From IMG/VR virus record IMGVR_UViG_3300028844_003737, positions 1 to 64,000 of that record: DNA of 64,000 nucleotides; one strand, written 5' to 3'. How positions within the stretch are numbered: the first letter of the stretch is position 1; every line of letters begins with the position of its first letter. The notes below the pieces were generated by a model. That model did no database searches and had not been told where the DNA came from. It was given only the letters and a program-made list of their open reading frames with translations. The stretch is from a virus. This document shows, in pieces, positions 5,616-17,436 of this stretch. Both the position numbers and the translations under genes were made by a program.

Positions 5616-6908
5616 ATGTTAAAGAAAATCTTAATAGGCCTGTTATTGGTCTCTTCATTGTTTGGAGAAAATGAACTTTGGAAGTTTTTTAAATACTCGA
5701 CTGCATATGGTAGTTTTAGTTTAAATGCGCCAAGATATCAAGACGATAGATTTGCTATTACAGGTGGATTGTCAACTGGTAACTTAGTAGTTGAAAGAAC
5801 TGAAAGAGAACTAAAGCCTGATTTTCAAACATCCTTTGGACTTCGTAAAATTGGTAGATTTCAATATGAACCAAAGAGAGGAGTCAAATCAGCTGGTAAA
5901 GGTGGAACTTGGTATGATGGTTCAGAACATAATGCTAATGAAAGTGCTACATTTGGACCTGTAAAAGGTTGGGAGTATCTAATCAAATGGTCAGAAGGTA
6001 GACAGTGGGGTAATGACTATGTAAACCAAGAATATTGGGTAAGATATATTGGTGAGTATTTGATGGGTAAAGTTGGACTAACTGAATTAGGTCTAGAAGA
6101 TATTAGCTATGTTCACGGAGATTTGAGATTACACCTCACACCAGAAGCTCTAAATGATAAACTACATTTTTCTATTGGACTAAAACATAGACAACATCCT
6201 GTATATGGATTTGATGCTATGGTTCTTGATACAACTTGGTATAAGGGACAGTGGTGGAACTTTGCTGAAGATGCTTTTGGTGTTGATGATAATATGTGGT
6301 ATGATCCAACAATGCAAGATGAAGATGGTAATTGGATAAAGAATGAATTATTTGAAATAGACCCCAACACAGGTGAACTTAGAAGAATTGAAGGTTCAGG
6401 ACCATTTTGGAATGAAGGTGGAGAATATTGGGGACATGATTGGTTATGGAGAGATGCTGATGGTCGTATCTTCGCATACACAGATAGAGAATATTTTGTA
6501 TATCACTTTCCAAGAATGTTAGAGGGATACATTGAAGATAAGAAAAAAGATTTAGGATACCAAAGTGAAACATCTTTAGTATTAGGGATAGATTGGTATC
6601 ACTATGGTGAGAACTGGTGGATACATGGTTGGGGTAATTGGTTACCGATGCACTATGGACATACTGATTATGCTTATCATAATGCTGCTCATTATCAAAC
6701 TCATTTAGAAGAAGGTAATGATCCAAGTGAATTTATGTTGATGAAACCAATGTGGCATAGTTGGAATGATTATGATATGGGTGCTATATTAGGAGTTAAG
6801 ATAAAGGATAATATGGGAGTATTTACAGAAGGTAGATATTTATATTATTGGGAAAGGCCGGCTTATGATATAAAGTTCGGTATGAATTATCAATTTGTAG
6901 GATGGTAA
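5616..6908 (+). CDS. Secreted, probable outer-membrane beta-barrel protein
   Basis: Sec signal MLKKILIGLLLVSSLFG; very Trp/Tyr/Gly-rich amphipathic strands; terminal strand YDIKFGMNYQF. Confidence 0.6.
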   Translation: MLKKILIGLLLVSSLFGENELWKFFKYSTAYGSFSLNAPRYQDDRFAITGGLSTGNLVVERTERELKPDFQTSFGLRKIGRFQYEPKRGVKSAGKGGTWYDGSEHNANESATFGPVKGWEYLIKWSEGRQWGNDYVNQEYWVRYIGEYLMGKVGLTELGLEDISYVHGDLRLHLTPEALNDKLHFSIGLKHRQHPVYGFDAMVLDTTWYKGQWWNFAEDAFGVDDNMWYDPTMQDEDGNWIKNELFEIDPNTGELRRIEGSGPFWNEGGEYWGHDWLWRDADGRIFAYTDREYFVYHFPRMLEGYIEDKKKDLGYQSETSLVLGIDWYHYGENWWIHGWGNWLPMHYGHTDYAYHNAAHYQTHLEEGNDPSEFMLMKPMWHSWNDYDMGAILGVKIKDNMGVFTEGRYLYYWERPAYDIKFGMNYQFVGW

Positions 6909-6919
6909 GGAGAACGATT

Positions 6920-6958
6920 ATGTGTGAATGTGAAAATTGCCAATGTGGTAAGAAATAA
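6920..6958 (+). CDS. 12-aa Cys-rich micropeptide MCECENCQCGKK (metallothionein-like)
   Basis: AAGGAG RBS at 6907-6912; fills the gap between two genes; CxCxxCxC. Confidence 0.5.
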   Translation: MCECENCQCGKK

Positions 6959-6973
6959 TAAACGGAGGTGACT

Positions 6974-7168
6974 ATGAAGTCAATACTAACAGGAATACTT
7001 TCTCTTTTTATTTTCTTTGGTGCTGTTCCAAATCTAAACGCTTCAGATATGAAGATGGATAATATGGAAGAAATCAAAAAGAAGAAAAAAAAGAAAGGTA
7101 AGAAAATGAAGAAGGGCAAAAAGAAAGCGAAGAAAGGTTTCTTCTCTAAGCTTATAGGCTCTAAGTAA
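6974..7168 (+). CDS. Small exported Lys-rich protein
   Basis: GGAGG RBS; signal peptide followed by a poly-Lys tail. Confidence 0.7.
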   Translation: MKSILTGILSLFIFFGAVPNLNASDMKMDNMEEIKKKKKKKGKKMKKGKKKAKKGFFSKLIGSK

Positions 7169-7179
7169 GAAAGGTAAGA

Positions 7180-7473
7180 ATGAATAATCCGATAGCAAAG
7201 TTTTATCAATGGCAAGTCTCATCTGGCGCATTAGATGGTTGGACATCATATCATTTAGCAGCTGGTTTGTTTATAGCAAAGGTTGCACAATGGTTAGGTT
7301 GTTCTGATTTTTGGGCTGTGATGTGGGTTGCCATTATCGGTGTCGCTTGGGAAATCTTCGAAGTATATGTAGAAGGTACTGAAGAAACTTATGGCACAAA
7401 GAAGAGATGGGCATATAACACAGGCGCTGACTTATTTGTAGAAATAGCAGCTGCTTGGTGGATGGTTCTGTAA
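7180..7473 (+). CDS. Small multi-pass membrane protein
   Basis: About 3 hydrophobic helices; WEIFE motif. Confidence 0.7.
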   Translation: MNNPIAKFYQWQVSSGALDGWTSYHLAAGLFIAKVAQWLGCSDFWAVMWVAIIGVAWEIFEVYVEGTEETYGTKKRWAYNTGADLFVEIAAAWWMVL

Positions 7474-7586
7474 TGGATAGCTTATCAGTTTGGAATGAAC
7501 TAAGTTATCTAGATGGTATCTTATTTACAGTATGGTTAGGTATACTATACTATGGTAAGTGCTGGATAGATAGCAAATTCAAATAG
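7473..7586 (+). CDS. 37-aa single-TM peptide (MDSLSVWNELSYLDGILFTVWLGILYYGKCWIDSKFK)
   Basis: TAATG coupling; fills the gap; absent from the ORF track. Confidence 0.55.
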   Translation: MDSLSVWNELSYLDGILFTVWLGILYYGKCWIDSKFK

Positions 7587-7592
7587 GAGACT

Positions 7593-8033
7593 ATGATGAT
7601 ATTACAAATTTTATTTTGCTTACTTATAATCCTTTATTGGTTTAGTGAAGGTGTAACCGAAGGTTGGACTTGGAGTACTAAAGCAAGAAAGAATAAGAAT
7701 AAGCTAATACATCCGAACAATGGAAAGAATGGTATATTCGATTATCATATGTGGAGAATATTAGAGAATGTAGGAATATGGGGTGCTGTAATTGTAGCAT
7801 TTTTTATCGAAGCATCGTTTGCTAAATTCTTTTGGTTAGGTGTTGGTAGTTGGTTCATCGGAACATTTTGTTATGAAGCCGCTTTGAATCACGTGAATAA
7901 AGGAACAATTTATAAACCAGTAGATTACAAATGGCATATCTTAGGATACGACATTCCTTGGTGGGGTGGTAAAAAGATTTATATCTTACCAGCTACTGGA
8001 CTAATAGTACTATTGTACGGAATGTGGATATAA
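7593..8033 (+). CDS. Multi-pass membrane protein
   Basis: 4 hydrophobic segments; AGGAG RBS. Confidence 0.7.
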   Translation: MMILQILFCLLIILYWFSEGVTEGWTWSTKARKNKNKLIHPNNGKNGIFDYHMWRILENVGIWGAVIVAFFIEASFAKFFWLGVGSWFIGTFCYEAALNHVNKGTIYKPVDYKWHILGYDIPWWGGKKIYILPATGLIVLLYGMWI

Positions 8034-8179
8034 TGCCAAATAAGAATGCTAAACAGAAAAAACAAAGAAGAGCCGCACTAAATAAAAAGTGGGCTAAAGA
8101 GGGTAGGACTGCTAATCAATATAAAAAGTGGTTAGCAAAAGAAGGAAATAAACCAAATAAAGGATTTGGTAGGAGATAA
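8033..8179 (+). CDS. 48-aa basic peptide (MPNKNAKQKKQRRAALNKKW...)
   Basis: TAATG coupling; fills the gap; absent from the ORF track. Confidence 0.6.
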   Translation: MPNKNAKQKKQRRAALNKKWAKEGRTANQYKKWLAKEGNKPNKGFGRR

Positions 8180-8182
8180 GAA

Positions 8183-8779
8183 ATGAGTTATTATGACATA
8201 TACAATAATCTAAAACTATTTTGTTTGATAGGAATGATATCTTTGTTTACATTTAATTGTGACAGTAGAGATGAAGAGCCATTAGAAGAAAGCATTGAGA
8301 TGTGGGTAAATGGCACAGAGTTTAATGTCCGTGAGTATTACGAAAGTATTACTACATACGGAGCATCATCAGTACAAGAAGATGGTTCTATAAAAAAGAT
8401 ATTTGTACTACACTTTCAAAGAGAAGATGGTAGAGTTACACCTGAGAAAGAACATTATGCTTTGATTATGTATGATAACAATGGACAAGATAATGGTCAA
8501 CTAATAGATACTAAATTATATTTAGGTGGTACTCAAATGGATTCATTATTACTTGAAACTACAAGTGGTAGAATAACATTAGAGATTGTTGGACTATCCG
8601 ATTTTACAGAATTTGCACAAGCATCAATACAAAAGTATGAGGATGGTAAAGTTAGTGGAATCGCAGATGGATACTTTTTCAACCCATATAGAAATGAAAT
8701 GCAACATGGTATAATTATTTTTGATAACTTAGAAGTGGGTACAGATCCTGAGGCTACATTTTACCAAGGAGTATATTAG
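8183..8779 (+). CDS. Putative lipoprotein
   Basis: Hydrophobic stretch ending FTFNC followed by acidic DSRDEE; beta-rich body. Confidence 0.55.
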   Translation: MSYYDIYNNLKLFCLIGMISLFTFNCDSRDEEPLEESIEMWVNGTEFNVREYYESITTYGASSVQEDGSIKKIFVLHFQREDGRVTPEKEHYALIMYDNNGQDNGQLIDTKLYLGGTQMDSLLLETTSGRITLEIVGLSDFTEFAQASIQKYEDGKVSGIADGYFFNPYRNEMQHGIIIFDNLEVGTDPEATFYQGVY

Positions 8780-9462
8780 TGAGTGAAAATGGAATCAAGT
8801 TAGGTCAGTTGTTATGTGATGAAGATGTTATCACAAAAAGACAACTAAGCAAAGCCTTACAAGAACAAGTCAAAGGTAGGAAAGGTACACTTGGTGAGAT
8901 TCTTGTAGATATGGGTGTATGTACATTTGAGGATATTACCGATGCTATGATGAATCACAATTCGGATACTCAAAAACACGAAGAGAAACACGAAGAGATT
9001 CACAAAGAACCTACACCACCACCTACAGTTCAACCTACACTACAGCCCGTAGTAGAAGAACCAAAGGTAATAGAACCAGTAGTAGAAGAACCTATAGAAC
9101 TTTCAGAAGAAAAAGTTATGGGTACAAAGTTTACAATGTCCTTGCAAACATTAGGCGCATTGATTAGTGTAATAGCCGCGGGAGTCGGTGGTTACTATAT
9201 GTTACTACAAGAGATTGAAGAAGCAAAAAATCTTCCCGAACCACCATCTATAGAATCTATATTTGGTGATGAGTATCCATCCAAGCCCGATGGACATAAC
9301 TGGCCTCGTTCATACGAACAATACAAATCACAAGTAGGTGGTTTGCAAGAAGATATGGATGCCGTCTATGAAATAATAGATGAGTACGAAGAGGCTATTG
9401 AAGATTTAGAAAAGCTCGTAGCAAATTTACGAGTTGAAGTTGCAAAGAAAAAGGACAAGTAG
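8779..9462 (+). CDS. MshEN (T2SSE_N-like) domain + Pro/Glu linker + TM helix + coiled coil
   Basis: KLGQLLCDEDVITKRQLSKALQEQ and TLGEILVDMGVCTFEDI match the tandem RLGxxLxxxGxIxxxxLxxxLxxQ motif. Confidence 0.75.
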   Translation: MSENGIKLGQLLCDEDVITKRQLSKALQEQVKGRKGTLGEILVDMGVCTFEDITDAMMNHNSDTQKHEEKHEEIHKEPTPPPTVQPTLQPVVEEPKVIEPVVEEPIELSEEKVMGTKFTMSLQTLGALISVIAAGVGGYYMLLQEIEEAKNLPEPPSIESIFGDEYPSKPDGHNWPRSYEQYKSQVGGLQEDMDAVYEIIDEYEEAIEDLEKLVANLRVEVAKKKDK

Positions 9463-9471
9463 GAGTTACTT

Positions 9472-9846
9472 ATGAAATATTTATTAGGATTATTATTATT
9501 TCTTTCTGTTACTATAGGACAAGTAAATGATAAGAACTTTAAAGAATCTATAAATGGTGGGATGGCTGTCGTAGTAGTTACAGCAGAATGGCAAGAACAA
9601 CCATTTGACGAAGATATTCTAGAAGGAGTAAAAGGATATCAGGATTGTAAAATAGTAAGAATAAAAAGTAAAGAAGCTCCAAAGGTTGTAAAGAAACTTA
9701 GGTTTAGAAACTTTCCATCTATGGCTTTATTCTATGACGGTTCTAAGAAAGAAACTTGGAAGGCTGATATGGATGGTGAGTTGGACATTGATAGTAAAGA
9801 CATAAAAGGTGCTATTGATGATGTACTAGCAGAGGACGTGTTCTAA
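9472..9846 (+). CDS. Secreted thioredoxin-fold protein lacking CxxC
   Basis: Signal peptide; NDKNFKE..VVVTAEW..RFRNFPSMALFYDG pattern. Confidence 0.6.
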   Translation: MKYLLGLLLFLSVTIGQVNDKNFKESINGGMAVVVVTAEWQEQPFDEDILEGVKGYQDCKIVRIKSKEAPKVVKKLRFRNFPSMALFYDGSKKETWKADMDGELDIDSKDIKGAIDDVLAEDVF

Positions 9847-9937
9847 GTCAAAATCTGTAAATATATTCACGTATATCTAATTATTCACACATAAACATAA
9901 TATTTATTATAGACTAACTGAAGATGAGGAGACTGTT

Positions 9938-10279
9938 GTGGAAACTAAAACAATAGAATCCCTTATCGGTGAGTATGGTTGGTTATTTATCGCGGGTGTT
10001 CTAACCCTGTTATTTCAAAGTACTATACAAGAGGCCGTTGATGGGATAATGGTTTTTTTAGGAAACGACTACAATGAAGATGATGTTGTAGAGGTTGATG
10101 GTGATCCAGGTCGTATCGTAAGAGTCGGTATGTGGAAAACTACATTCTTTATATATCATGTCGTAAATGGTAAGATAGTTGGAGGTTCAAAATTAGTAGT
10201 GGCTAATTCTAAACTCAAAGATTTGAAAATAGAAAAACCATTACCAAATTTAGATTTGTCCAAATATGATACAGAGTAA
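9938..10279 (+). CDS. Minimal MscS-family protein (TM + beta domain)
   Basis: TM3-like helix, then YNEDDVVEVDGDPGRIVRVGMWKTTF...VANSKL. Confidence 0.65.
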   Translation: METKTIESLIGEYGWLFIAGVLTLLFQSTIQEAVDGIMVFLGNDYNEDDVVEVDGDPGRIVRVGMWKTTFFIYHVVNGKIVGGSKLVVANSKLKDLKIEKPLPNLDLSKYDTE

Positions 10280-10321
10280 CAAAAGTTTACATATAGATCG
10301 GTAAATTATGTTACACAAGAT

Positions 10322-10346
10322 AGAGTGCTTACGGGCACTCTTTTTT
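10322..10346 (+). terminator. Rho-independent terminator
   Basis: AGAGTGC-TTACGG-GCACTCT followed by a T run. Confidence 0.85.
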
Positions 10347-10365
10347 GTTTAAAATAGTTGCTATC

Positions 10366-10443
10366 GTAAGTCGTTATATATCAACACATAAAATTATTTT
10401 TATTTATTTCTTGAATTTAGCATGCTTTGGTATGGTTATTGTA
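10366..10443 (+). promoter_or_regulatory. IHF-like site plus sigma54 (-24/-12)-like promoter of the pilin genes
   Basis: TAAGTCGTTATATATCAACAC at ~10367-10387; TTGGTATGGTTATTGTA with GG(10429-30)-N10-GT(10441-42). Confidence 0.5.
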
Positions 10444-10503
10444 GTATATAAGTAGAATGAGTCATTAGGACAAATTCAAATTGAATAAATAGGGAGGACT
10501 GAA

Positions 10504-11163
10504 ATGTTCGATATGATAAAAAGATTTTTCAAAAAACTAAATAAAAAGCTTAGAAAGAATACAGGAAACTCACTTGCTGAATTTGCTGTTACTACCGCTA
10601 TGATGGCAACACTTGCTACTACAGCTGCTCCTAAGTTTGGTAATGTTGGTGCTGCTGCTAAAGAGAAGAAGTCAATTGCTAACATTGATAAGATATTAAC
10701 AGTAGCCAACAACTACTACAACCAAGCAGTATCTGAAGAAGGAAAGGGAAGATTTCCTGGACAATCAAAGTATGACCAACCTGTAGGTGGGATTGACTTG
10801 TCAGATGGAGCATATACTGATGAAACTCTTGAAGCATACATTGAAACTATACTTGAACAAAAACAATCATATGAATCTGAATTAGGTGAGTTTGTTTATG
10901 TATTTTCAGCATCTTCTGATGACGATGACGCTTTACAAGATGATTGGATGAACTTAGAAACATCTGTTGGATTCAATTCAGGTGGAGCACTTGACTTCAA
11001 AAAAGACTTTGGTAACAAAGGAATCAAGTCACCATTTCAGGATGGTTCGTATGCTTACTTAGTAATACCAGGAAGTGGTAGTGGAACAGATGCTCAAGCA
11101 CCTGCTCTTGTCGTAATAGACACAGAGAATCCAGGAATGCTATTTAAAACTTTAGTACCTTAA
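10504..11163 (+). CDS. Type IV pilin-like protein with atypical class III signal (G|NSLAE)
   Basis: Basic leader, Gly-1, Glu+5, long apolar helix with Pro22 (AAPKF). Confidence 0.75.
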   Translation: MFDMIKRFFKKLNKKLRKNTGNSLAEFAVTTAMMATLATTAAPKFGNVGAAAKEKKSIANIDKILTVANNYYNQAVSEEGKGRFPGQSKYDQPVGGIDLSDGAYTDETLEAYIETILEQKQSYESELGEFVYVFSASSDDDDALQDDWMNLETSVGFNSGGALDFKKDFGNKGIKSPFQDGSYAYLVIPGSGSGTDAQAPALVVIDTENPGMLFKTLVP

Positions 11164-11198
11164 TTTAATAATAGAAACAATAACCGAAAGGAAAGAAA

Positions 11199-11642
11199 AT
11201 GAAGAACATACTCAAAAACACAAGTAAGGGTTTTACCTTGATTGAATTAGTAATGGTTACAATCATATTGGGAATCTTAGCGGCTGTAGCAATACCTCGT
11301 TATCAACAGACTGTAGATAATGCGGAAGAAGCTGCAGAAAAGACATTTGTCGATATGGTATGGGCTGGATGTGAACAAGAAGCTTCTGAAAGAATAACTG
11401 AGACTGGACTTGAGGCATGGCCTTATAATCCACTAACAGTTATTGGTAGAAGTCGTAACATATCAGTTACATTGTTTGAAGGTGTACCCGATGAAGATAA
11501 CGAATGGCAGTTTAGTGTAGATGCGGCTGGTGAACCAGCAATATTTCATCACAGACGAAACGATGAAATCTATTACTACAAGTACGATTCATTGACATTT
11601 GAGTTGGACGAACTACCTACGCTTTATACAAACGAAGGATAA
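11199..11642 (+). CDS. Type IV pilin / prepilin-type N-methylation protein
   Basis: KG|FTLIELVMVTIILGILAAVAIPRY canonical motif. Confidence 0.92.
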   Translation: MKNILKNTSKGFTLIELVMVTIILGILAAVAIPRYQQTVDNAEEAAEKTFVDMVWAGCEQEASERITETGLEAWPYNPLTVIGRSRNISVTLFEGVPDEDNEWQFSVDAAGEPAIFHHRRNDEIYYYKYDSLTFELDELPTLYTNEG

Positions 11643-11692
11643 TTAATGGGGGAATTTATAACGATTTCCCCTATTTATTATAAAGAGGTATT

Positions 11693-12136
11693 ATGAGATT
11701 AAATCTTACAGATGATATTTTAGAACTTGTATTAGGTGGATTAATAATGGTTACTTTAGGGTTCGTATTCTTTAGAAGTGACGAATCCATTAAAGTACAA
11801 AAAGAACCTACTATTGATGACTTTTATGAGTTCCCACTACAAGCGTGGCAGACCACAGACTTACAAGGTGGAGATTGTATAAAGATTAGATATATGGTTA
11901 CTAAACCAAAGACTCGTTTGATTATGAAAAGCGCTGATGGAATAAGGGTACATATGCAACCAATATCTTTGAGTCCGAGAAAAGGTGAAGATAGAATAGA
12001 AACTTATGTATGGAAACTATATCGTACAGAATGGACAGATAAAATATCACCAGGTGAATATCTTATAATAGTAGGAACCGACCACGATAGGAGACCATCC
12101 AAAACAAACTTATCAATAAAGGTAGATGTATTATGA
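11693..12136 (+). CDS. Membrane-anchored beta-rich (Ig-like) protein
   Basis: N-terminal TM; W....SPGEYLIIV pattern. Confidence 0.5.
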   Translation: MRLNLTDDILELVLGGLIMVTLGFVFFRSDESIKVQKEPTIDDFYEFPLQAWQTTDLQGGDCIKIRYMVTKPKTRLIMKSADGIRVHMQPISLSPRKGEDRIETYVWKLYRTEWTDKISPGEYLIIVGTDHDRRPSKTNLSIKVDVL

Positions 12137-12747
12137 AAAAAACCTTGACTTCTATATTTTTGATGATAGTGATAGTGAACAATCCAATATTTTCACAAGA
12201 AATCAAACGGACATCAGAGTTCAAAAGAGATGTTGCATATGGAATAGAATGTGATGATACAGAATACAGAGATTACAAAGGCTCGCCTGCTTGGAAAGGA
12301 TATGGTGGATGGATATCCGAATGCGATTCAATTCGTACAACACGATTAAATGCTGAGTTTGCTCTTAGGTCAAAAGAAAGACAAAGACAAAAAGCAATTC
12401 AAGATAGCATAGATATTGCAACAGCATCTTTTGATGATATAGACTTAGATGTTATGTGGGAAAATACAGTGTGGGAAGAGATTGACGAAATTACAGAAGT
12501 ATACGGCGAAGTAGAACAAATAACTGCTGTTGCTGGAGTTCGTGGTGCTGAAGCAGAAGATGAAGCATTGAATCATTTATACTATAGAAGAAGTATGAAA
12601 GGCTTAGCTCTAATAGATTTACAAAAAGCTTATGGCAAGTTATCAATCAAAAGGGAAAATCTTATAAAGATAAATCCAAACCATCCTAAATTGGAGAAGA
12701 TAGACAATCTTTTATCTCAATTAAAAATAAAAATGAAAAAAGTATAA
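12133..12747 (+). CDS. Secreted hypothetical protein
   Basis: Signal peptide; AVAGVRGAE motif. Confidence 0.6.
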   Translation: MKKTLTSIFLMIVIVNNPIFSQEIKRTSEFKRDVAYGIECDDTEYRDYKGSPAWKGYGGWISECDSIRTTRLNAEFALRSKERQRQKAIQDSIDIATASFDDIDLDVMWENTVWEEIDEITEVYGEVEQITAVAGVRGAEAEDEALNHLYYRRSMKGLALIDLQKAYGKLSIKRENLIKINPNHPKLEKIDNLLSQLKIKMKKV

Positions 12748-12802
12748 AAAAAATGCGTTTTGAGAATTTTACTATATACATATATATATAAAGTTTTTTG
12801 AC

Positions 12803-13227
12803 AATTTGAAAATTTGAAAAGTGCAGAGAGTAATTAACTCTGTATGGGATTGGTCGAATAATGAGTATACTTGAAGCTCATAAGACAATCTAATGTGAGT
12901 TGTGGTGACTTGGAACTCTGCTGAATGTAGTAGAGGTGTAACGGTCCTCATAGACATATGACACATAATGTACTTTCAGAAATAACAAGATGATTCTTGG
13001 ACTTTGTTGTGGGTAAGGATAAAACTGAAATCCCACCTTGTGGCTGAATAATTTAGTCTCAGAAGAGATAAGGCAATAGCACAGACATTGTAGTCGCTCT
13101 AACGTAGAACTAACCATCTATTAGGAGAACCAAAGTAACTTTTGGGTGTTAGGTACAAAGTTATAATAAATTCTGAGCTGAAAGTTGTAGGTAATCATTA
13201 ATCCTACATCCCCCTAATTTTCAATTT
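12803..13227 (+). ncRNA. Large structured ncRNA (~420 nt), possibly ROOL-like
   Basis: No + strand ORF. Ends pair (TTGAAAATT 12806-14 / AATTTTCAA 13216-24). Internal stems AGAGT/ACTCT, GATT-GTC/GAC-AATC, ATGAG/CTCAT, GTGGG/CCCAC, CCAAA/TTTGG, TGTAGG/CCTACA. Terminator follows. Confidence 0.7.
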
Positions 13228-13230
13228 TAT

Positions 13231-13302
13231 AAAAAAGGGTTCGATCTGATTTTTAGTTTCCACTATATTACAAACTTAAAAACTTTTATGAACCCTTTTT
13301 TT
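13231..13302 (+). terminator. Long hairpin terminator after the ncRNA
   Basis: AAAAAAGGGTTC...GAACCCTTTTTTT with an inner imperfect stem. Confidence 0.7.
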
Positions 13303-13305
13303 GCC

Positions 13306-13335
13306 TTGACTTATATGCGATTTCTTTTGTAAGAT
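13306..13335 (+). promoter_or_regulatory. Sigma70-like promoter, probably giving a leaderless mRNA
   Basis: TTGACT-N18-TAAGAT; ATG at 13341 with no RBS. Confidence 0.5.
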
Positions 13336-13340
13336 CTTAT

Positions 13341-13868
13341 ATGAATAAATGTAAAAAATGTAATGAAACAATGGATAATCACAGAGCTCATCTTGGTTAC
13401 TCCGAATGTGTTGAGTGTTCGACAGTAAAGAAATATTCATCGCATACTATATATCCACATAAAACTGGTGGGTATATCCAACCTGTATCAGAAGAACAAT
13501 CAGAAAATCTAAATAGGTTAGATAGAAGAGGTACATCTGGTAATAAACCAGCTAAAGGTATTGTAAAAGATAATAGTTGGGATAGGTGGTTGAAAGAATA
13601 CTATGCTCCTAAACCAGAGAAGAAGAAGTTTGTACCTAAGCCTACGACACTACCTATTTATATACCTGTAAAGGAAGCTATGACTAAGGTGATGGATATG
13701 TATGAAAATAGGGGATATGATTCAGCATACGAACTAACACAATCATTGTATACCGATGATAAAATTTCACTTATGACTAAATCAAAGATTACTAATGAGA
13801 TAACTGAGTGGCAATATATGAGTGCTAAACAAAGAAGATGGCAAAAAAAACTGGAAATAAATGCATAA
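13341..13868 (+). CDS. Zn-finger protein (CxxC...CxxC)
   Basis: CKKC...CVEC; HKTGGY motif. Confidence 0.7.
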   Translation: MNKCKKCNETMDNHRAHLGYSECVECSTVKKYSSHTIYPHKTGGYIQPVSEEQSENLNRLDRRGTSGNKPAKGIVKDNSWDRWLKEYYAPKPEKKKFVPKPTTLPIYIPVKEAMTKVMDMYENRGYDSAYELTQSLYTDDKISLMTKSKITNEITEWQYMSAKQRRWQKKLEINA

Positions 13869-13902
13869 AGTCCTTGTTTATTAGCAAATTTATTCGTAGC
13901 TT
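13843..13902 (+). promoter_or_regulatory. Repeated early promoter, copy 1
   Basis: A8-CTGGAAATAAATGCATAAAGTCC, then TTGTTT(13874)-N17-TAGCTT(13897). Confidence 0.8.
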
Positions 13903-13925
13903 TATATATAAAGAAAAGGGAAAAG

Positions 13926-16007
13926 ATGAGTAATTCAATAAAACATAATTTCAATCCGATGGCTCTCAGAGAGAAACATTCTGCTGAAAGTCGTACTAAC
14001 AGCTATTCTTCTTTTTGGTTAGATAATGGTTGGGACAACAATACTTCTATATTTGACGATGAAGAAACTAAAAAGGGTGTAGATTTAGTCGCACTGGCTT
14101 CTTATCGTAGGGCTATCAGTAATTTCGTTTCTATCGTTACTGGTGAATCAGACATCAAAGTTACTTTCAATACTTCAGGCGATAGTTATACTAATGGTAA
14201 AGAAGTTACTATCTCTTCTAAATTAGATGACAAACTATTTGACTCAACTGTTGGTCTGGCTTTGCATGAGGGTTCTCATATCAAACTTTCAGATTTTGAT
14301 TTTCTAAAACAACTTGATACTAATATTCCAGCTGAGTATTTCAATAGAGGTGAAGCACTTGGAATGGAGAGATATGAAGTAATTGGTAAACTAAAAAATT
14401 TACTAAACTATGTAGAAGATAGAAGAATTGATTATTTTGTCTTTTCAAATTCACCGGGCTACAAAGGTTATTATCATAAGATGTATGAAAAATACTTTCA
14501 TGCTAAGGTTATTGATAAGGCTTTAGGTTCTAATGAGTATACTTCAGTTGATTGGGATTCTTATGAATTTCGTATTATCAATCTCACTAACAAAAATACT
14601 CTTTTGGATGTTCTGCCTGGTTTGAAAGATATCAGAAAAGCTATTTTCAGTAATGTAAAGAATTTAGATTCTACTGCTGAGGCTTTCGCTGTTGCTCTAA
14701 ATGTCTTTGATATTATTCTTTCTAACTTAGAAGCCCAACCAAAAGTTGATGGTGGAAAAGGTGATGGCGAAGAGGGTGCTGATGGTTCTGAAAGTGGTGG
14801 TGATGAAAATGATATGGGTTCTAAAGGTGATGGTAATTCTGATGGTGAAGGCGAGTCAATGAGTGGTAAATCTTCAGAAAATCAGCCTGAGAATTCAAAT
14901 TCTGATTTATCAGAATTATCAGACAGGCAGAAAAAACAACTTAGTAATGCTGTAAAGAAGCAGAAGAAATTTATGGATGGCGACATCACTAAAAAGAAGC
15001 TAACTAAAAAAGATAAAGCTTCTATGGATGCTGTTGAATCTGCTGGAATGAAATATGTAGATGTTGCTAGTGGTGTTACAGATAATTACTATGGTAAAAA
15101 AACTCCTACTAAAGTTTTATTGGTAAAGAAATTTACTAAAGCTCTAGCTGAGTCTGATACCATTCGTATGATTCAAACACCAAACTACAGATGGGCTGGT
15201 GAAGAAACTAAAGAAGCTATTACTAAAGGTTTGGTAATGGGAACTATGTTAGGTCGTAAACTTCAAGTACGTGGAGAGTCTCGTGAGACTAAGTGGTCTA
15301 GAAAAGATTCAGGCCGTATCGATAAGAGATTGATTGCTGAGTTAGGTTTTGGTAACCAGAGAGTTTTTCATACTTCATTTGTAGAACAATATTCAGATGC
15401 TTTTCTTCACATCTCAGTTGATGCTAGTGGTTCGATGGGTGGAAAGAAGTGGGTAAATACTCAGACTTGTGTTGCTGCCATCGCTAAAGCTTGTTCAATG
15501 ATTTCAAATGTTGATTGTGTAATTTCTTACAGAAGTACGCAGGATACTGGAAACTACAGACGTGGTGGTAAGAATTTCCCACTAATGATGATTGCTTATG
15601 ATTCTCGTGTTGATAAAATCAATAAAATCAAAAATCTATTTCCATTACTTCGTCCGAGTGGAACTACTCCTGAAGGATTGTGTTTTGAAGCGATTATGAA
15701 GGAAATTGAACCGGCATCTAAGGATAAGGATTCATACTTCCTAAACTTATCAGATGGAATGCCTATGTTTTCTAATGATGATATTGACTATAACTATGAT
15801 ACGGCAATCAATCACACTAAGAGTATGGTAAATGAGATTCGTAATCGTGGTGTAAAAGTTCTTAGTTACTTCATTGGAGATAGTTATGATAGGGATAGAA
15901 GTACTTCTACTTTCAAAAAGATGTATGGCTCAGATGCTGAGTTCATCAATGTGACTTCAGTACTTCCGGTTGCTAAAACAATGAATAAAAAGTTCTTACA
16001 AAAATAA
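13926..16007 (+). CDS. vWA-domain protein with N-terminal HEXXH metallopeptidase-like domain (CobT-like MoxR partner)
   Basis: LALHEGSH; NYVEDRRID; acidic Gly/Ser linker; MIDAS VDASGSM, GTTPEG, LSDG. Confidence 0.85.
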   Translation: MSNSIKHNFNPMALREKHSAESRTNSYSSFWLDNGWDNNTSIFDDEETKKGVDLVALASYRRAISNFVSIVTGESDIKVTFNTSGDSYTNGKEVTISSKLDDKLFDSTVGLALHEGSHIKLSDFDFLKQLDTNIPAEYFNRGEALGMERYEVIGKLKNLLNYVEDRRIDYFVFSNSPGYKGYYHKMYEKYFHAKVIDKALGSNEYTSVDWDSYEFRIINLTNKNTLLDVLPGLKDIRKAIFSNVKNLDSTAEAFAVALNVFDIILSNLEAQPKVDGGKGDGEEGADGSESGGDENDMGSKGDGNSDGEGESMSGKSSENQPENSNSDLSELSDRQKKQLSNAVKKQKKFMDGDITKKKLTKKDKASMDAVESAGMKYVDVASGVTDNYYGKKTPTKVLLVKKFTKALAESDTIRMIQTPNYRWAGEETKEAITKGLVMGTMLGRKLQVRGESRETKWSRKDSGRIDKRLIAELGFGNQRVFHTSFVEQYSDAFLHISVDASGSMGGKKWVNTQTCVAAIAKACSMISNVDCVISYRSTQDTGNYRRGGKNFPLMMIAYDSRVDKINKIKNLFPLLRPSGTTPEGLCFEAIMKEIEPASKDKDSYFLNLSDGMPMFSNDDIDYNYDTAINHTKSMVNEIRNRGVKVLSYFIGDSYDRDRSTSTFKKMYGSDAEFINVTSVLPVAKTMNKKFLQK

Positions 16008-16180
16008 AGGAGAGATTGAGTTGAGTTTATTAGCATACAATAAAGAAGTACGAGATGAGATTGAAAAGCTGATTGAAGAGCATGTAAAGAAATCTAGAAG
16101 AGGTTATCCTTGGTCTGGTGAACATAAAGAAGTTACTAAAAAGATTATGAATATTTTTAGGAGAACTACTTAGTGTACAA

Positions 16181-16239
16181 GAAAAAACTGGAAATAATTG
16201 CAGAAAGTCCTTGTATATTAGCAAATTTATTCGTAGCTT
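16181..16239 (+). promoter_or_regulatory. Repeated early promoter, copy 2
   Basis: CTGGAAATAATTGCAGAAAGTCC, then TTGTAT(16211)-N17-TAGCTT(16234). Confidence 0.8.
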
Positions 16240-16284
16240 TATATGTAAACAATGAGAGAAATACTAACAAAAGGAAAAAATAAT

Positions 16285-17436
16285 ATGGATAAAAACATAA
16301 TCGTAAAAATTGAAAAGTCCGGCAATAGATATAATGCTTGGGACAAAGATGGTGTAAAATTTACATCACAGATTGGTACTTCTACCCGAAAGAAGGCTTT
16401 TCTAAGTAATATGGCTTTGGAACGTAGAACTGGTAAAGAAGGTAGAATTTACTGGTGGAAAGTTCCTATGGAGATGTTTGAATCTTCAATGGCTCCTGTA
16501 ATCGATGTTTCATCTGTAGATGTTCCATCAGATCATGCTGAGGTTCTAAACTTCATTCACACTTCTTATAATCTCAAACCACAAGGTTTGGTTATGAAAG
16601 AACTGAAGTGGAAGTACTTAGTTCGTTCCGCTGTTCGTGGTAAGAATATTTTGATGACTGGTCCTGCTGGTTGTGGAAAAACTATGGCTGCTAAGTCATT
16701 AGTCAACTCACTTGATAGGGCTGACTTCTACTTCAACTTAGGAGCGACACAGGACCCAAGAGCTACTTTGATTGGTAATGTCCACTTCGATAAAAAGAAG
16801 GGTACTTTCTTTTCCGAATCAGTTTTTGTAAAGGCTATTCAAACTCCTAACGCTGTTATTTTGTTAGATGAGTTGAGTAGGGCTCATCCTGATGCTTGGA
16901 ATATTTTGATGACTGTCTTAGATAGTGGTCAGAGATATTTGAGACTTGATGAGGCTGATGGACAACAAACTATCAATGTGGCTGAAGGTGTTACTTTTGT
17001 TGCTACCGCTAATGTTGGTAATGAGTATACTTCTACCAGAGTTATGGATAAGGCTTTGATGGATAGATTCATTATCGTAGAAATGGATGTTCTAAACTCT
17101 GATGAAGAGCATGGACTACTGAACTATATGTTTCCAAATGTAGATTCAGATTTACTGAAGTCTGTTGCTGAGATTGCTTCTTCAACGCGAAGTGAGTCAA
17201 AGTCTGAGGCTGGTAGGTTGTCTGCTGGAATCTCTACCAGAACTTCTGTTGAGATAGCTGGACTACTTTATGATGGCTTTGGATTAGATGAGGCTGCTGA
17301 AGTAACTGTCTATCCTCAGTTTTCTGATGATGGTGGGCTTGAGTCTGAAAGAACTTATGTGAAACAACTTGTTCAAAAGTTTGTCTCTGATGGTTCTTCT
17401 GAGGACTTGTTCAATGAGGAAGAGATGAACAGCTAA
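16285..17436 (+). CDS. MoxR/CbbQ/CobS-type AAA+ ATPase
   Basis: GPAGCGKT, ILLDELSRA, ATAN, DKALMDRF, STR; AAAGGA RBS before 16285. Confidence 0.9.
   Translation: MDKNIIVKIEKSGNRYNAWDKDGVKFTSQIGTSTRKKAFLSNMALERRTGKEGRIYWWKVPMEMFESSMAPVIDVSSVDVPSDHAEVLNFIHTSYNLKPQGLVMKELKWKYLVRSAVRGKNILMTGPAGCGKTMAAKSLVNSLDRADFYFNLGATQDPRATLIGNVHFDKKKGTFFSESVFVKAIQTPNAVILLDELSRAHPDAWNILMTVLDSGQRYLRLDEADGQQTINVAEGVTFVATANVGNEYTSTRVMDKALMDRFIIVEMDVLNSDEEHGLLNYMFPNVDSDLLKSVAEIASSTRSESKSEAGRLSAGISTRTSVEIAGLLYDGFGLDEAAEVTVYPQFSDDGGLESERTYVKQLVQKFVSDGSSEDLFNEEEMNS

What the first reader, a model, noticed from the sequence alone, without database searches (positions are those of the whole stretch)
12803..13302. ~420-nt ornate ncRNA with paired ends and its own terminator
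Seen: the largest non-coding gap in a gene-dense genome, with 5'/3' pairing and at least six internal helices. Segments such as GTGGGTAAGG..GAAATCCCAC and GAAAGTTGTAGGTAATC..CCTAC remind me of ROOL RNA, a large phage-associated RNA of unknown function. That match is from memory. A compact variant in a marine-type large phage, or a new RNA class, would be notable.
Basis: partly seen in the sequence, partly recalled or inferred. Interest (0 to 1): 0.8.

Follow-up and report, generated by a model that had tools for sequence, protein, structure and literature searches.

The report
Two-core manA-type phage RNA gene
The gene-free stretch holds a real, elaborately folded non-coding RNA gene of about 430-510 bases from an uncultured marine phage; it is not ROOL but an enlarged form of the known "manA" phage RNA, with a second manA core built into the first, and it looks like a gene of its own, not a switch for its neighbour.

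Summary
Observation confirmed; the ROOL reading is wrong. Window 12748-13340 is the largest ORF-free gap. Rfam gives a full-length manA (RF01745) match at 13008-13212 (69.3 bits, cut-off 55.2) and nothing for ROOL or GOLLD.

More than 100 distinct homologues in IMG/VR contigs keep the whole ~425-nt unit. On 60 of them, 98.6% of cells in 91 predicted pairs are paired, against 34-43% when partners are slid. Compensatory changes occur in 59 pairs.

The fold is a manA scaffold whose 5' parts lie in the first half (12821-12979) and whose 3' parts lie at the end (13178-13212). A second manA core (13002-13160) is nested between them. Three covarying long-range helices and a closing helix lock the halves together.

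A conserved sigma70-like promoter precedes the RNA, and a specific, conserved terminator hairpin follows it. The next gene has its own promoter and differs between relatives. Metatranscriptome contigs from three studies cover only the RNA, which is weak evidence.

A 2026 preprint shows that single-core manA RNAs self-assemble in vitro through kissing loops. This RNA carries a palindromic apical loop kept palindromic by a double change.

Earlier notes of this scan describe the same double-manA type on other DNA. I found it in neither Rfam nor the papers I could search. Verdict: a new variant of a known kind.

The parts
12760..12788 (+). Sigma70-like promoter of the RNA: TTGAGA (12760-12765), 17 nt, TATATA (12783-12788). 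The inferred start lies near 12793-12797.
   Evidence: TTGRGA-N17-TATAWT-like boxes are conserved at this position upstream of the RNA in most of 64 homologues. The start site is inferred, not mapped.
12795..13303 (+). Whole inferred transcript: leader, two-core manA-type RNA and terminator domain, about 510 nt.
   Evidence: The unit is conserved end to end in IMG/VR contigs, and the core is 422-446 nt in nearly all.
12806..12814 (+). Closing helix P0, 5' strand UUGAAAAUU. It pairs with 13216-13224.
   Evidence: cognate duplexes beat non-cognate and shuffled ones. The sequence differs between lineages but stays complementary (UUGAAAUUU/AAAUUUCAA, UUUGGAAU/AUUCCAAA, UGAAAUC/GAUUUCA).
12821..12845 (+). 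Hairpin P1a, equivalent to the manA 5' hairpin, with apical loop AGUAAUUAA that contains the palindrome UAAUUA.
   Evidence: Stem covaries: CAGAG/CUCUG, GAGAG/CUCUC, CGAAG/CUUCG. Loop palindromes.
12846..12850 (+). GGGAU, 5' strand of the long-range helix with AUCCC (13208-13212). It equals the GGGAG/CUCCC helix of the manA model.
   Evidence: One search aligns it to the model's GGGaG. GGGAU/AUCCC in 90 rows, and GGAAU/AUUCC (compensatory) in 14.
12851..12966 (+). Core 1. It has the internal-loop module UGGUCGAAUAA-hairpin-AUAAGAC (12851-12886). It also has a multi-hairpin junction (12893-12966) whose first loop is the manA-type GUGGUG.
   Evidence: Rfam manA aligns to 12822-13000 as model positions 1-156 (14 bits, E 0.12 over all families). 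The core-2 model R1 hits 12851-12886 (8.7 bits, E 0.009). Covariation: helices 3-7.
12972..12979 (+). ACUUUCAG, 5' strand of the long-range helix with CUGAAAGU (13178-13185). It equals the penultimate helix of manA.
   Evidence: helix 8: 6 of 8 pairs show compensatory changes; at least 8 different fully complementary versions.
12987..12998 (+). Small linker hairpin AAGA-UGAU-UCUU between the cores.
   Evidence: Read from alignment A2: AUAGAA/UUCUAU, ACAGAA/UUCUGU, AAAGAA/UUCUUU, UAAGAA/UUCUUA. MAFFT misaligns the 5' arm, so it was not counted formally.
13002..13160 (+). Core 2, closed by its own helix CUUUG (13002-13006)/CAAAG (13156-13160). It contains hairpin P1b (13009-13036), the module UGGCUGAAUAA-hairpin-AUAAGGC, and a three-hairpin junction with UAACCA and GUAAC loops.
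   Evidence: helices 10-18. Model R1, built from this part, finds cyanophage manA: P-SSM4 31 bits, P-SSM2 30 bits.
13008..13212 (+). Rfam manA (RF01745) match, full model 1-192.
   Evidence: 69.3 bits against a cut-off of 55.2, E 1.5e-15. In this local alignment the GGGAG/CUCCC helix is deleted, and the penultimate helix is marked non-canonical.
13178..13185 (+). CUGAAAGU, 3' strand of the long-range helix with 12972-12979.
13187..13207 (+). Terminal hairpin GUAGG-UAAUCAUUAAU-CCUAC, the manA 3' hairpin.
   Evidence: helix 19: GUAGG/CCUAC, GUGAG/CUCAC, GUUGG/CCAAC.
13208..13212 (+). AUCCC, 3' strand of the long-range helix with 12846-12850.
13216..13224 (+). Closing helix P0, 3' strand AAUUUUCAA.
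13231..13302 (+). 3' terminator domain. It consists of an A run, outer stem GGGUUC (13237-13242)/GAACCC (13290-13295), a conserved apical part with AUUUUUAGUUUCCAC (13249-13263), and a U run (13296-13302).
   Evidence: z -4.5; 45 of 46 homologues have an outer stem of 5 or more pairs, in at least 8 different sequences; the apical motif occurs once per locus, only here.
13306..13335 (+). Separate sigma70-like promoter of the next gene: TTGACT-N18-TAAGAT, 5 nt before ATG 13341. It is not part of the RNA.
   Evidence: The same arrangement (TTGACA-N17-TATATT, then ATG) is seen in L004/L006.

Best explanation
The stretch is an independent gene for a ~430-nt structured RNA, ~510 nt with its terminator hairpin. 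The RNA is a nested two-core variant of the manA family.

Shown:
- A manA scaffold is split. Its 5' elements (5' hairpin, GGGAU strand, GAAUAA/UAAG internal-loop module, GUGGUG-loop junction, 5' strand of the penultimate helix) lie at 12821-12979.
- Its 3' elements (3' strand of that helix, terminal hairpin, AUCCC strand) lie at 13178-13212.
- A second, self-closed manA core (13002-13160) sits where single-core manA has a small hairpin.
- A further helix pairs the two ends.

Inferred from sequence:
- The RNA is transcribed from its own sigma70-like promoter and stopped by its own conserved terminator hairpin, so it acts in trans and not as a leader of the next gene.

Inferred from family behaviour (Ren et al. 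2026, in vitro only):
- Like single-core manA RNAs, it most likely works as a self-associating RNA that builds RNA-only oligomers through loop-loop contacts.
- The palindromic P1a loop (UAAUUA) is a candidate for contacts between molecules.
- The GUGGU loop of core 1 and the ACCAU loop of core 2 are candidates for a contact within or between molecules.

What such an assembly does for the phage is unknown.
For: Identity:
- Rfam manA scores 69.3 bits against a cut-off of 55.2 at 13008-13212.
- The first half alone aligns to manA model positions 1-156 as its best Rfam hit.
- A model of core 2 finds cyanophage manA at E 1e-7 and the module of core 1 at E 0.009.

Structure:
- 60-sequence alignment A2: 98.6% of cells paired against 34-43% with slid partners.
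- 59 compensatory pairs against 12-19 with slid partners; 0 of 500 shuffles reach the covariation score.
- Long-range helices covary; the closing helix covaries.

Independent unit:
- Promoter boxes are conserved.
- The terminator has a covarying outer stem and a motif found only here.
- The next gene has its own promoter.
- The downstream gene differs: a gp32-like SSB in 48 loci, a 175-aa ORF plus CobT-like gene here, others elsewhere. The upstream gene varies too.
- RNA contigs of three marine metatranscriptome studies lie only on 12823-13224 of the 3.5 kb laid (weak, contigs only).
- Single-core manA in S-CREM1 sits between two tRNA genes with no room for a leader role.

Self-association:
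- manA RNAs form 8-, 10- and 60-mers in vitro by kissing loops (10.64898/2026.07.01.735769).
- The P1a loop holds a 6-nt palindrome in 8 of 19 loop types (1.9 expected). UAAUUA is replaced by UUAUAA, a double change that keeps self-complementarity.
Against: - No transcript ends were mapped. All RNA runs were contigs, and one run (X10) covers the flanks as well, so a discrete transcript is only hinted at.
- A terminator directly after a conserved fold, followed in 48 loci by the same gene pair (SSB, RecA), is also what a transcription-attenuating riboswitch looks like. Three relatives (L004, L006, L085) lack the terminator.
- Self-assembly is known only in vitro, for single-core manA, from one preprint. 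I could not map that paper's loop numbers onto this RNA.
- Loop types are related by descent, so the palindrome count overstates independence.
- Some lineages carry non-palindromic GACG-type loops.
- The GUGGU/ACCAU loop pairing has only one-sided changes and one lineage with a register shift.
- The first half reaches only 14 bits against Rfam manA by itself.
Confidence: 0.7

Rival explanations
1. Cis-acting riboswitch or attenuator. The two-core fold would be a (tandem) aptamer. The hairpin at 13231-13302 would be its expression platform, and ligand binding would decide read-through into the downstream gene (SSB/RecA in most relatives, the 175-aa ORF here). This is the original 2010 proposal for manA.
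For: - Rfam and Weinberg et al. 2010 file manA as a cis-regulatory riboswitch candidate.
- The RNA is followed by a terminator and lies on the same strand as the next gene.
- 48 of about 58 loci have the same downstream gene.
- The A run before the terminator stem could pair either with the U tail or with the leader's U run.
Against: - The terminator's G+C stem does not overlap any strand of the conserved fold, so no mutually exclusive pairing is evident.
- The downstream genes have their own promoter directly after the terminator.
- The downstream gene is replaced in several lineages, including this window, while the RNA stays intact.
- S-CREM1 manA lies between tRNA genes.
- RNA contigs of three studies do not extend into the next gene (weak).
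Confidence: 0.15
2. Trans-acting RNA that does not self-assemble. It would be a protein- or small-molecule-binding scaffold or decoy that uses the duplicated GAAUAA/UAAG internal loops as two binding sites. A ribozyme is another possibility.
For: - It shares the evidence for an independent unit with the best explanation.
- The most conserved unpaired nucleotides are the two copies of the internal-loop module and the junction loops.
- In-vivo assembly of manA has not been shown (no 'in vivo' statement in the preprint).
Against: No partner is known. The only experimental behaviour reported for the family is homo-oligomerisation. The palindromic loop kept by a double change points to RNA-RNA contacts.
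Confidence: 0.12
3. A compact ROOL/GOLLD-type RNA or an entirely new RNA class.
For: It shares size class, ornate fold, phage origin and its own terminator. The resemblance to ROOL was from memory only.
Against: There is no ROOL or GOLLD match even at E <= 10, whereas manA scores above its curated cut-off. Every conserved element maps onto the manA model.
Confidence: 0.02

Closest known systems
manA RNA motif (Rfam RF01745; Weinberg et al. 2010, PMC2864571), e.g. Prochlorococcus phages P-SSM4 and P-SSM2, Synechococcus phage S-CREM1
   Same: - 5' hairpin followed by a GGGAG-type strand that pairs with a 3' CUCCC-type strand.
- YGAAUAA-hairpin-UAAGR internal-loop module.
- Multi-hairpin junction with GUGGUG and ACCA loops.
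- Penultimate helix and terminal hairpin UGuGGUA..AAUCCnaC.
- Marine phage origin.
- The Rfam score is above the cut-off.
   Different: - Single-core manA is 186-215 nt. This RNA is about 425 nt with two cores.
- The scaffold helices are made between the flanks of core 1 and the 3' end, and core 2 is nested inside.
- The GUGGUG loop is kept only in core 1 and the ACCA loop only in core 2.
- It has an extra closing helix and a dedicated conserved terminator domain.
- The score is much lower (69 bits against 97-184).
- The hosts are unknown. The nearest cultured phages (Microcystis phage Mel-JY01, Flavobacterium immuto phages) have no manA.
Self-assembling manA RNAs of Ren et al. 2026 (bioRxiv 10.64898/2026.07.01.735769)
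   Same: They belong to the same family, and the assemblies are held by kissing loops. This RNA has a palindromic apical loop and a complementary loop pair.
   Different: Those are single-core RNAs under 200 nt studied in vitro. No two-core form is described there. Assembly of this RNA is untested.
ROOL and GOLLD (large ornate phage-associated RNAs)
   Same: Large, ornate, phage-borne, of unknown function.
   Different: No sequence or structure match in Rfam. The size is smaller and the conserved elements are different.
Tandem riboswitch aptamers (e.g. glycine riboswitch)
   Same: Two homologous ligand-binding-type cores in one RNA that contact each other.
   Different: Here the second core is nested inside the first, not placed side by side. 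No ligand is known and no expression-platform logic is evident.

Membership tests
manA RNA (RF01745) | Covariance-model score at or above the curated gathering score (55.2 bits) | tested here: met
   69.3 bits, model 1-192, at 13008-13212.
manA RNA (RF01745) | GGGAG strand after the 5' hairpin pairing with CUCCC at the 3' end | tested here: met
   It is absent inside the local Rfam hit, where those columns are deleted. It is present at long range as GGGAU 12846-50 / AUCCC 13208-12. One search aligns it to the model's GGGaG, and relatives have the compensatory GGAAU/AUUCC.
manA RNA (RF01745) | Internal-loop module YGAAUAA - hairpin - UAAGR | tested here: met
   It is present twice, at 12851-12886 and 13041-13074. 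The flanking helices covary.
manA RNA (RF01745) | Junction of three hairpins carrying the GUGGUG and ACCA loops in one core | tested here: inconclusive
   Both cores have the junction. GUGGUG is only in core 1 (about 12902-12907) and UAACCA only in core 2 (about 13111-13116). Core 2 has UUGUAG in place of GUGGUG.
manA RNA (RF01745) | Penultimate helix and terminal hairpin UGnnGGUA...AAUCCnnC | tested here: met
   The terminal hairpin is at 13187-13207. The penultimate helix is formed by 12972-79 with 13178-85, not by a local strand.
manA RNA (RF01745) | Single core of about 190-215 nt | tested here: not met
   There are two cores, about 425 nt between the closing strands. Canonical examples are 186-215 nt with tight flanks.
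manA RNA (RF01745) | Position in a 5' UTR with a cis-regulatory role (as filed in Rfam) | tested here: inconclusive
   It lies upstream of a gene on the same strand, but it is separated from that gene by its own terminator and a second promoter. The downstream gene varies.
manA RNA (RF01745) | Homo-oligomerisation through kissing loops (Ren et al. 2026) | not testable with these tools
   Only sequence hints are available: the palindromic P1a loop and the GUGGU/ACCAU loop pair.
ROOL (and GOLLD) | Match to the Rfam covariance model | tested here: not met
   No match at gathering score in the whole window, nor at E <= 10 in 12650-13450.

The most novel reading that the evidence does not exclude
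The two-core RNA is a natural covalent 'dimer' of the cage-forming manA subunit. In infected cells it would assemble, through its palindromic and complementary loops, into RNA-only particles of a geometry different from single-core manA. Such particles would have a role in early infection, for example enclosing or sequestering a host or phage factor. manA-type RNAs in general would then be stand-alone assembling RNAs, not riboswitches.
Probability: 0.25. Interest if true: 0.85.

Novelty: new variant of a known kind. Interest (0 to 1): 0.6.

Why it matters
manA has been an orphan 'riboswitch candidate' since 2010, and in 2026 it was reported to build RNA-only cages in vitro.

- A widespread natural form fuses and interlocks two cores. 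It has more than 100 distinct sequences in marine viral contigs and is present in marine RNA libraries.
- This form gives an independent, evolution-made clue to which contacts of the manA fold matter.
- It argues that these RNAs are genes of their own.
- It offers a larger, rigid subunit for structural work.
- It also shows that Rfam's model annotates only half of such RNAs.

Tried and rejected
- ROOL/GOLLD: no Rfam match.
- Coding gap: no conserved frame.
- blastn of the gap and of 7 kb around it against 50,697 phage records: no match.
- Exact core-1 motif in 185,579 prokaryote genomes: none.
- manA in the nearest cultured relatives (Mel-JY01, immuto, LR756508): none. Syn9 and S-RSM4 also have none.
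- The terminator as a general terminator of this phage: rejected, because its apical motif is single-copy.
- Pairing of the terminator loop CCAC(UAU) with the GUGGUG loop of core 1: only 4 bp. The lineage whose core-1 loop reads AUAGUGG has a different terminator without CCACUAU, so I dropped it.
- TTGACA at 12798-12803 as the RNA's -35 box: rejected. No -10 box follows, the spacing varies, it reads TTGAAA in half of the relatives, and it lies just 5' of the paired leader (P0 starts at 12806).
- The core-1 motif in the stored part of the 2010 manA alignment: not found, but the file is cut and gapped, so this says little.
- MAFFT-based pair counts for the terminator outer stem were noisy, so I replaced them with per-sequence folds.
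- RNA run X10 covers flanks and RNA alike, so it cannot tell transcription from DNA carry-over.
- Absence of cover on the flanks in X17, X19 and X20 is a hint only.

Full report
OBSERVATION. Window 12748-13340 (593 nt) is the largest stretch without a + strand ORF of 50 or 70 codons. All + frames of the RNA part carry 11-18 stops. The longest open frames in 60 homologues differ in frame and length.
- The ends pair: 12806-12814 with 13216-13224.
- There are many internal helices.
- A long hairpin with a U run lies at 13231-13302 (z = -4.5).
The single-sequence folding energy of the whole RNA is only about 2 sd better than shuffles. The case therefore rests on comparison with homologues.

IDENTITY. 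A scan of the window with all 4227 Rfam families gives a full-length manA match (RF01745) at 13008-13212. It scores 69.3 bits against a curated cut-off of 55.2. A permissive scan of 12650-13450 adds nothing credible, and no ROOL or GOLLD match. In that alignment two things are odd. The model's GGGAG/CUCCC helix is deleted, and the 5' strand of the penultimate helix is non-canonical. The upstream 200 nt, scanned alone, also has manA as its best hit: model positions 1-156, 14 bits, E 0.12 over all families. There the hairpin, GGGA, UG..GAAUAA, UAAG, GUGGUG and GUA all align.

HOMOLOGUES.
- The flanking proteins led to six IMG/VR loci in which the entire gap is conserved.
- An exact 22-base motif of the first half found 75 viral contigs, which give 64 distinct RNAs. 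They are 63-85% identical to the window, and nearly all are 422-446 nt long.
This added about 50 further distinct RNAs whose first half differs.
- None was found in 185,579 prokaryote genomes or by blastn in cultured phage records.
- The nearest cultured phages by baseplate and RecA proteins are Microcystis phage Mel-JY01, Flavobacterium immuto phages and the uncultured LR756508. None has manA.

STRUCTURE. On the 60-sequence alignment A2, RNAalifold predicts 91 pairs in 19 helices, and 59 pairs show compensatory changes. Counting gives the following:
- 98.6% of cells are paired, against 34-43% when partners are slid by 1-3 columns.
- 59 compensatory pairs are seen, against 12-19 with slid partners.
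- No shuffle out of 500 reaches the covariation score.
Four long-range elements define the architecture:
1. GGGAU 12846-50 pairs with AUCCC 13208-12. This helix is invariant in A2, but it reads GGAAU/AUUCC in 14 of the added relatives.
2. ACUUUCAG 12972-79 pairs with CUGAAAGU 13178-85. Six of its eight pairs are compensatory, and at least eight different complementary versions exist.
3. CUUUG 13002-06 pairs with CAAAG 13156-60.
4. The closing helix pairs 12806-14 with 13216-24. Cognate leader/tail duplexes average -9.5 kcal/mol, non-cognate pairs -7.5 and shuffled tails -3.7, with p 1e-8.

ARCHITECTURE. I compared the RNA with single-core manA of S-CREM1 (96.6 bits). Its order is hairpin, GGAUG, GAAUAA module, junction, GU-UCUAGAG, small hairpin, CUCUAGU, terminal hairpin, CAUCC. 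The window RNA follows the same scaffold:
- Its 5' elements are all in the first half (12821-12979).
- Its 3' elements are at the very end (13178-13212).
- The small hairpin is replaced by a linker hairpin (12987-98) plus a complete, self-closed second core (13002-13160).
Infernal's best local match joins core 2 to the 3' elements. That explains the deleted helix and the mismatched strand.
A covariance model of core 2 alone (R1) gives these results:
- It finds manA of P-SSM4 (31 bits, E 1.5e-7), P-SSM2 (30 bits) and S-CREM1 (13.5 bits).
- In the first half of the window it finds the internal-loop module at 12851-12886 (E 0.009).
The two cores are therefore related, but outside that module core 1 has diverged. 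Canonical manA RNAs are 186-215 nt with tight flanks:
- P-SSM4: 15 nt after pstS.
- P-SSM2: between regA and purL.
- S-CREM1: between tRNA-Leu and tRNA-Asn.

TRANSCRIPTION UNIT (inferred).
- Upstream, TTGRGA-N17-TATAWT-like boxes are conserved. In the window these are 12760-65 and 12783-88. Many relatives have a small extra hairpin between them and the RNA.
- Downstream, about 46 of the 64 core-1-motif homologues carry a terminator hairpin with the same apical part, and most others carry a different long terminator hairpin. Its G+C outer stem exists in at least eight different complementary versions. Its apical part (AUUUUUAGUUUCCAC...AAACUUAAAAA) is nearly invariant and occurs once per locus, only here. 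It is thus a dedicated 3' domain, not a generic terminator. Other sub-lineages use other long terminator hairpins. L004, L006 and L085 have none.
- A second sigma70-like promoter follows the terminator.
- The downstream genes are a gp32-like SSB in 48 loci and a RecA/UvsX recombinase in 41.
- In this window the downstream genes are a 175-aa ORF and CobT/CobS-like genes. No SSB or RecA lies in the 64 kb.
- Upstream genes vary widely.

RNA DATA. The stretch is held by runs of 11 studies, all marine or seawater, six of them RNA libraries. I laid 3.5 kb (11500-15000) on four RNA runs from four studies. Contigs of X17, X19 and X20 lie only on 12823-13224, apart from one 44-nt piece. X10 covers everything. 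These are contigs, so neither ends, strand nor level can be read. I count this as a weak hint of a discrete, abundant RNA.

MECHANISM. Weinberg et al. 2010 proposed manA as a riboswitch candidate in 5' UTRs. Earlier notes of this scan pointed me to Ren et al. 2026 (bioRxiv 10.64898/2026.07.01.735769), which I read. Single-core manA RNAs form octamers, decamers and a 60-mer icosahedral cage in vitro. The assemblies are built from pentamers held by kissing loops. Nothing is shown in vivo. Three sequence hints are relevant here:
- The apical loop of P1a holds the palindrome UAAUUA.
- Unbiased relatives have UUAUAA, a double change at the two positions that would pair in a self-duplex. Others have UAAUUG or GAUC, and some lineages have non-palindromic GACG-type loops. 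A 6-nt palindrome occurs in 8 of 19 loop types against 1.9 expected, though the types are not independent.
- Core 1 keeps the GUGGUG loop and core 2 keeps the ACCA loop, while single-core manA has both. GUGGU/ACCAU can pair, and most variants stay compatible, but the evidence is one-sided.
I therefore favour a stand-alone, trans-acting, self-associating RNA. The independent-gene part is moderately well supported. The assembly part is inference.

RIVALS. A terminator-controlling riboswitch remains possible, at about 0.15. Against it:
- The terminator stem shares no strand with the fold.
- The next gene has its own promoter.
- The next gene is exchangeable.
A non-assembling protein- or ligand-binding RNA is also possible, at about 0.12. 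ROOL or a new class is excluded.

NOVELTY. The family is known. I found the nested two-core form with interlocking helices, a closing helix and a dedicated terminator domain in neither Rfam nor the papers I could search. Earlier follow-up notes of this scan describe the same type on other DNA (e1-6074940, e1-6078515; e1-5833224, e1-5362657). I reached the two-core reading before seeing them, and I took from them only the lead to the 2026 preprint.

LIMITS.
- Transcript ends are not mapped.
- The whole RNA exceeds the size limit for a covariance model, so alignments are MAFFT-based. The closing helix, linker hairpin and terminator stem had to be judged per sequence.
- Homologue sets were fished with exact motifs, so invariance of those motifs is by construction.

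Noticed in passing
L120:1133-1502 (S-CREM1, OP535465 10132-10501): Canonical manA sits between tRNA-Leu and tRNA-Asn with 1-nt or no spacers. Sequences in the 2010 seed alignment are also flanked by tRNA-like sequence and by a terminator. manA may generally be a stable RNA gene in tRNA arrays, not a leader.
   Followed up: partly
window 12827 and 13208 (run X17); relatives at the position of 13213-13224 (run X19): One RNA-library contig carries Illumina adapter sequence directly at 12827 and at 13208. A relative's contig ends in 18 or more A right after the closing-helix strand. These could mark defined or processed ends upstream of the terminator domain, or they could be library artefacts.
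   Followed up: no
window 13306-13343: The promoter-like TTGACT-N18-TAAGAT ends 5 nt before ATG 13341. L006 has TTGACA-N17-TATATT-AACGT-ATG. The downstream 175-aa gene, which has an N-terminal CxxC...CxxC motif, may be translated from a leaderless or nearly leaderless mRNA.
   Followed up: no
L060, L089, L103, L105, L115, L155 (between the RNA's 3' end and the terminator): Some relatives carry an extra element of about 65 nt (UUGGAAAGUAUCCUUACAG...CCCUAACUUUCCAA, ends paired) inserted between the closing helix and a different terminator hairpin.
   Followed up: no
upstream of the RNA in many loci, e.g. L056, L064, L095: A small hairpin with a covarying stem (GUAUC..GAUAC, UACUUAA..UUAAGUA, GUCU..AGAC) lies between the promoter boxes and the conserved AAAGUUUUUUGA leader. 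It is absent in the window.
   Followed up: no
window 11199-11642 and neighbours: The ORF has a prokaryotic N-terminal methylation (type IV pilin-like) motif (PF07963, E 3e-7) in a phage contig. First-stage notes on a pilin/envelope island exist for 5616-12747.
   Followed up: no
window 13926-17436: A CobT-like (phrog_5298) 693-aa protein and a MoxR/CbbQ-type AAA+ ATPase (PF07728, PF08406) follow the RNA locus. In L026, L037, L079 and L111 the same 693-aa gene follows the RNA.
   Followed up: partly
L141, L213: The core-2 loop motif also hit two contigs in which the surroundings do not align to the RNA. These are probably chance or coding matches, and I left them out of all counts except the 111-row alignment.
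   Followed up: partly
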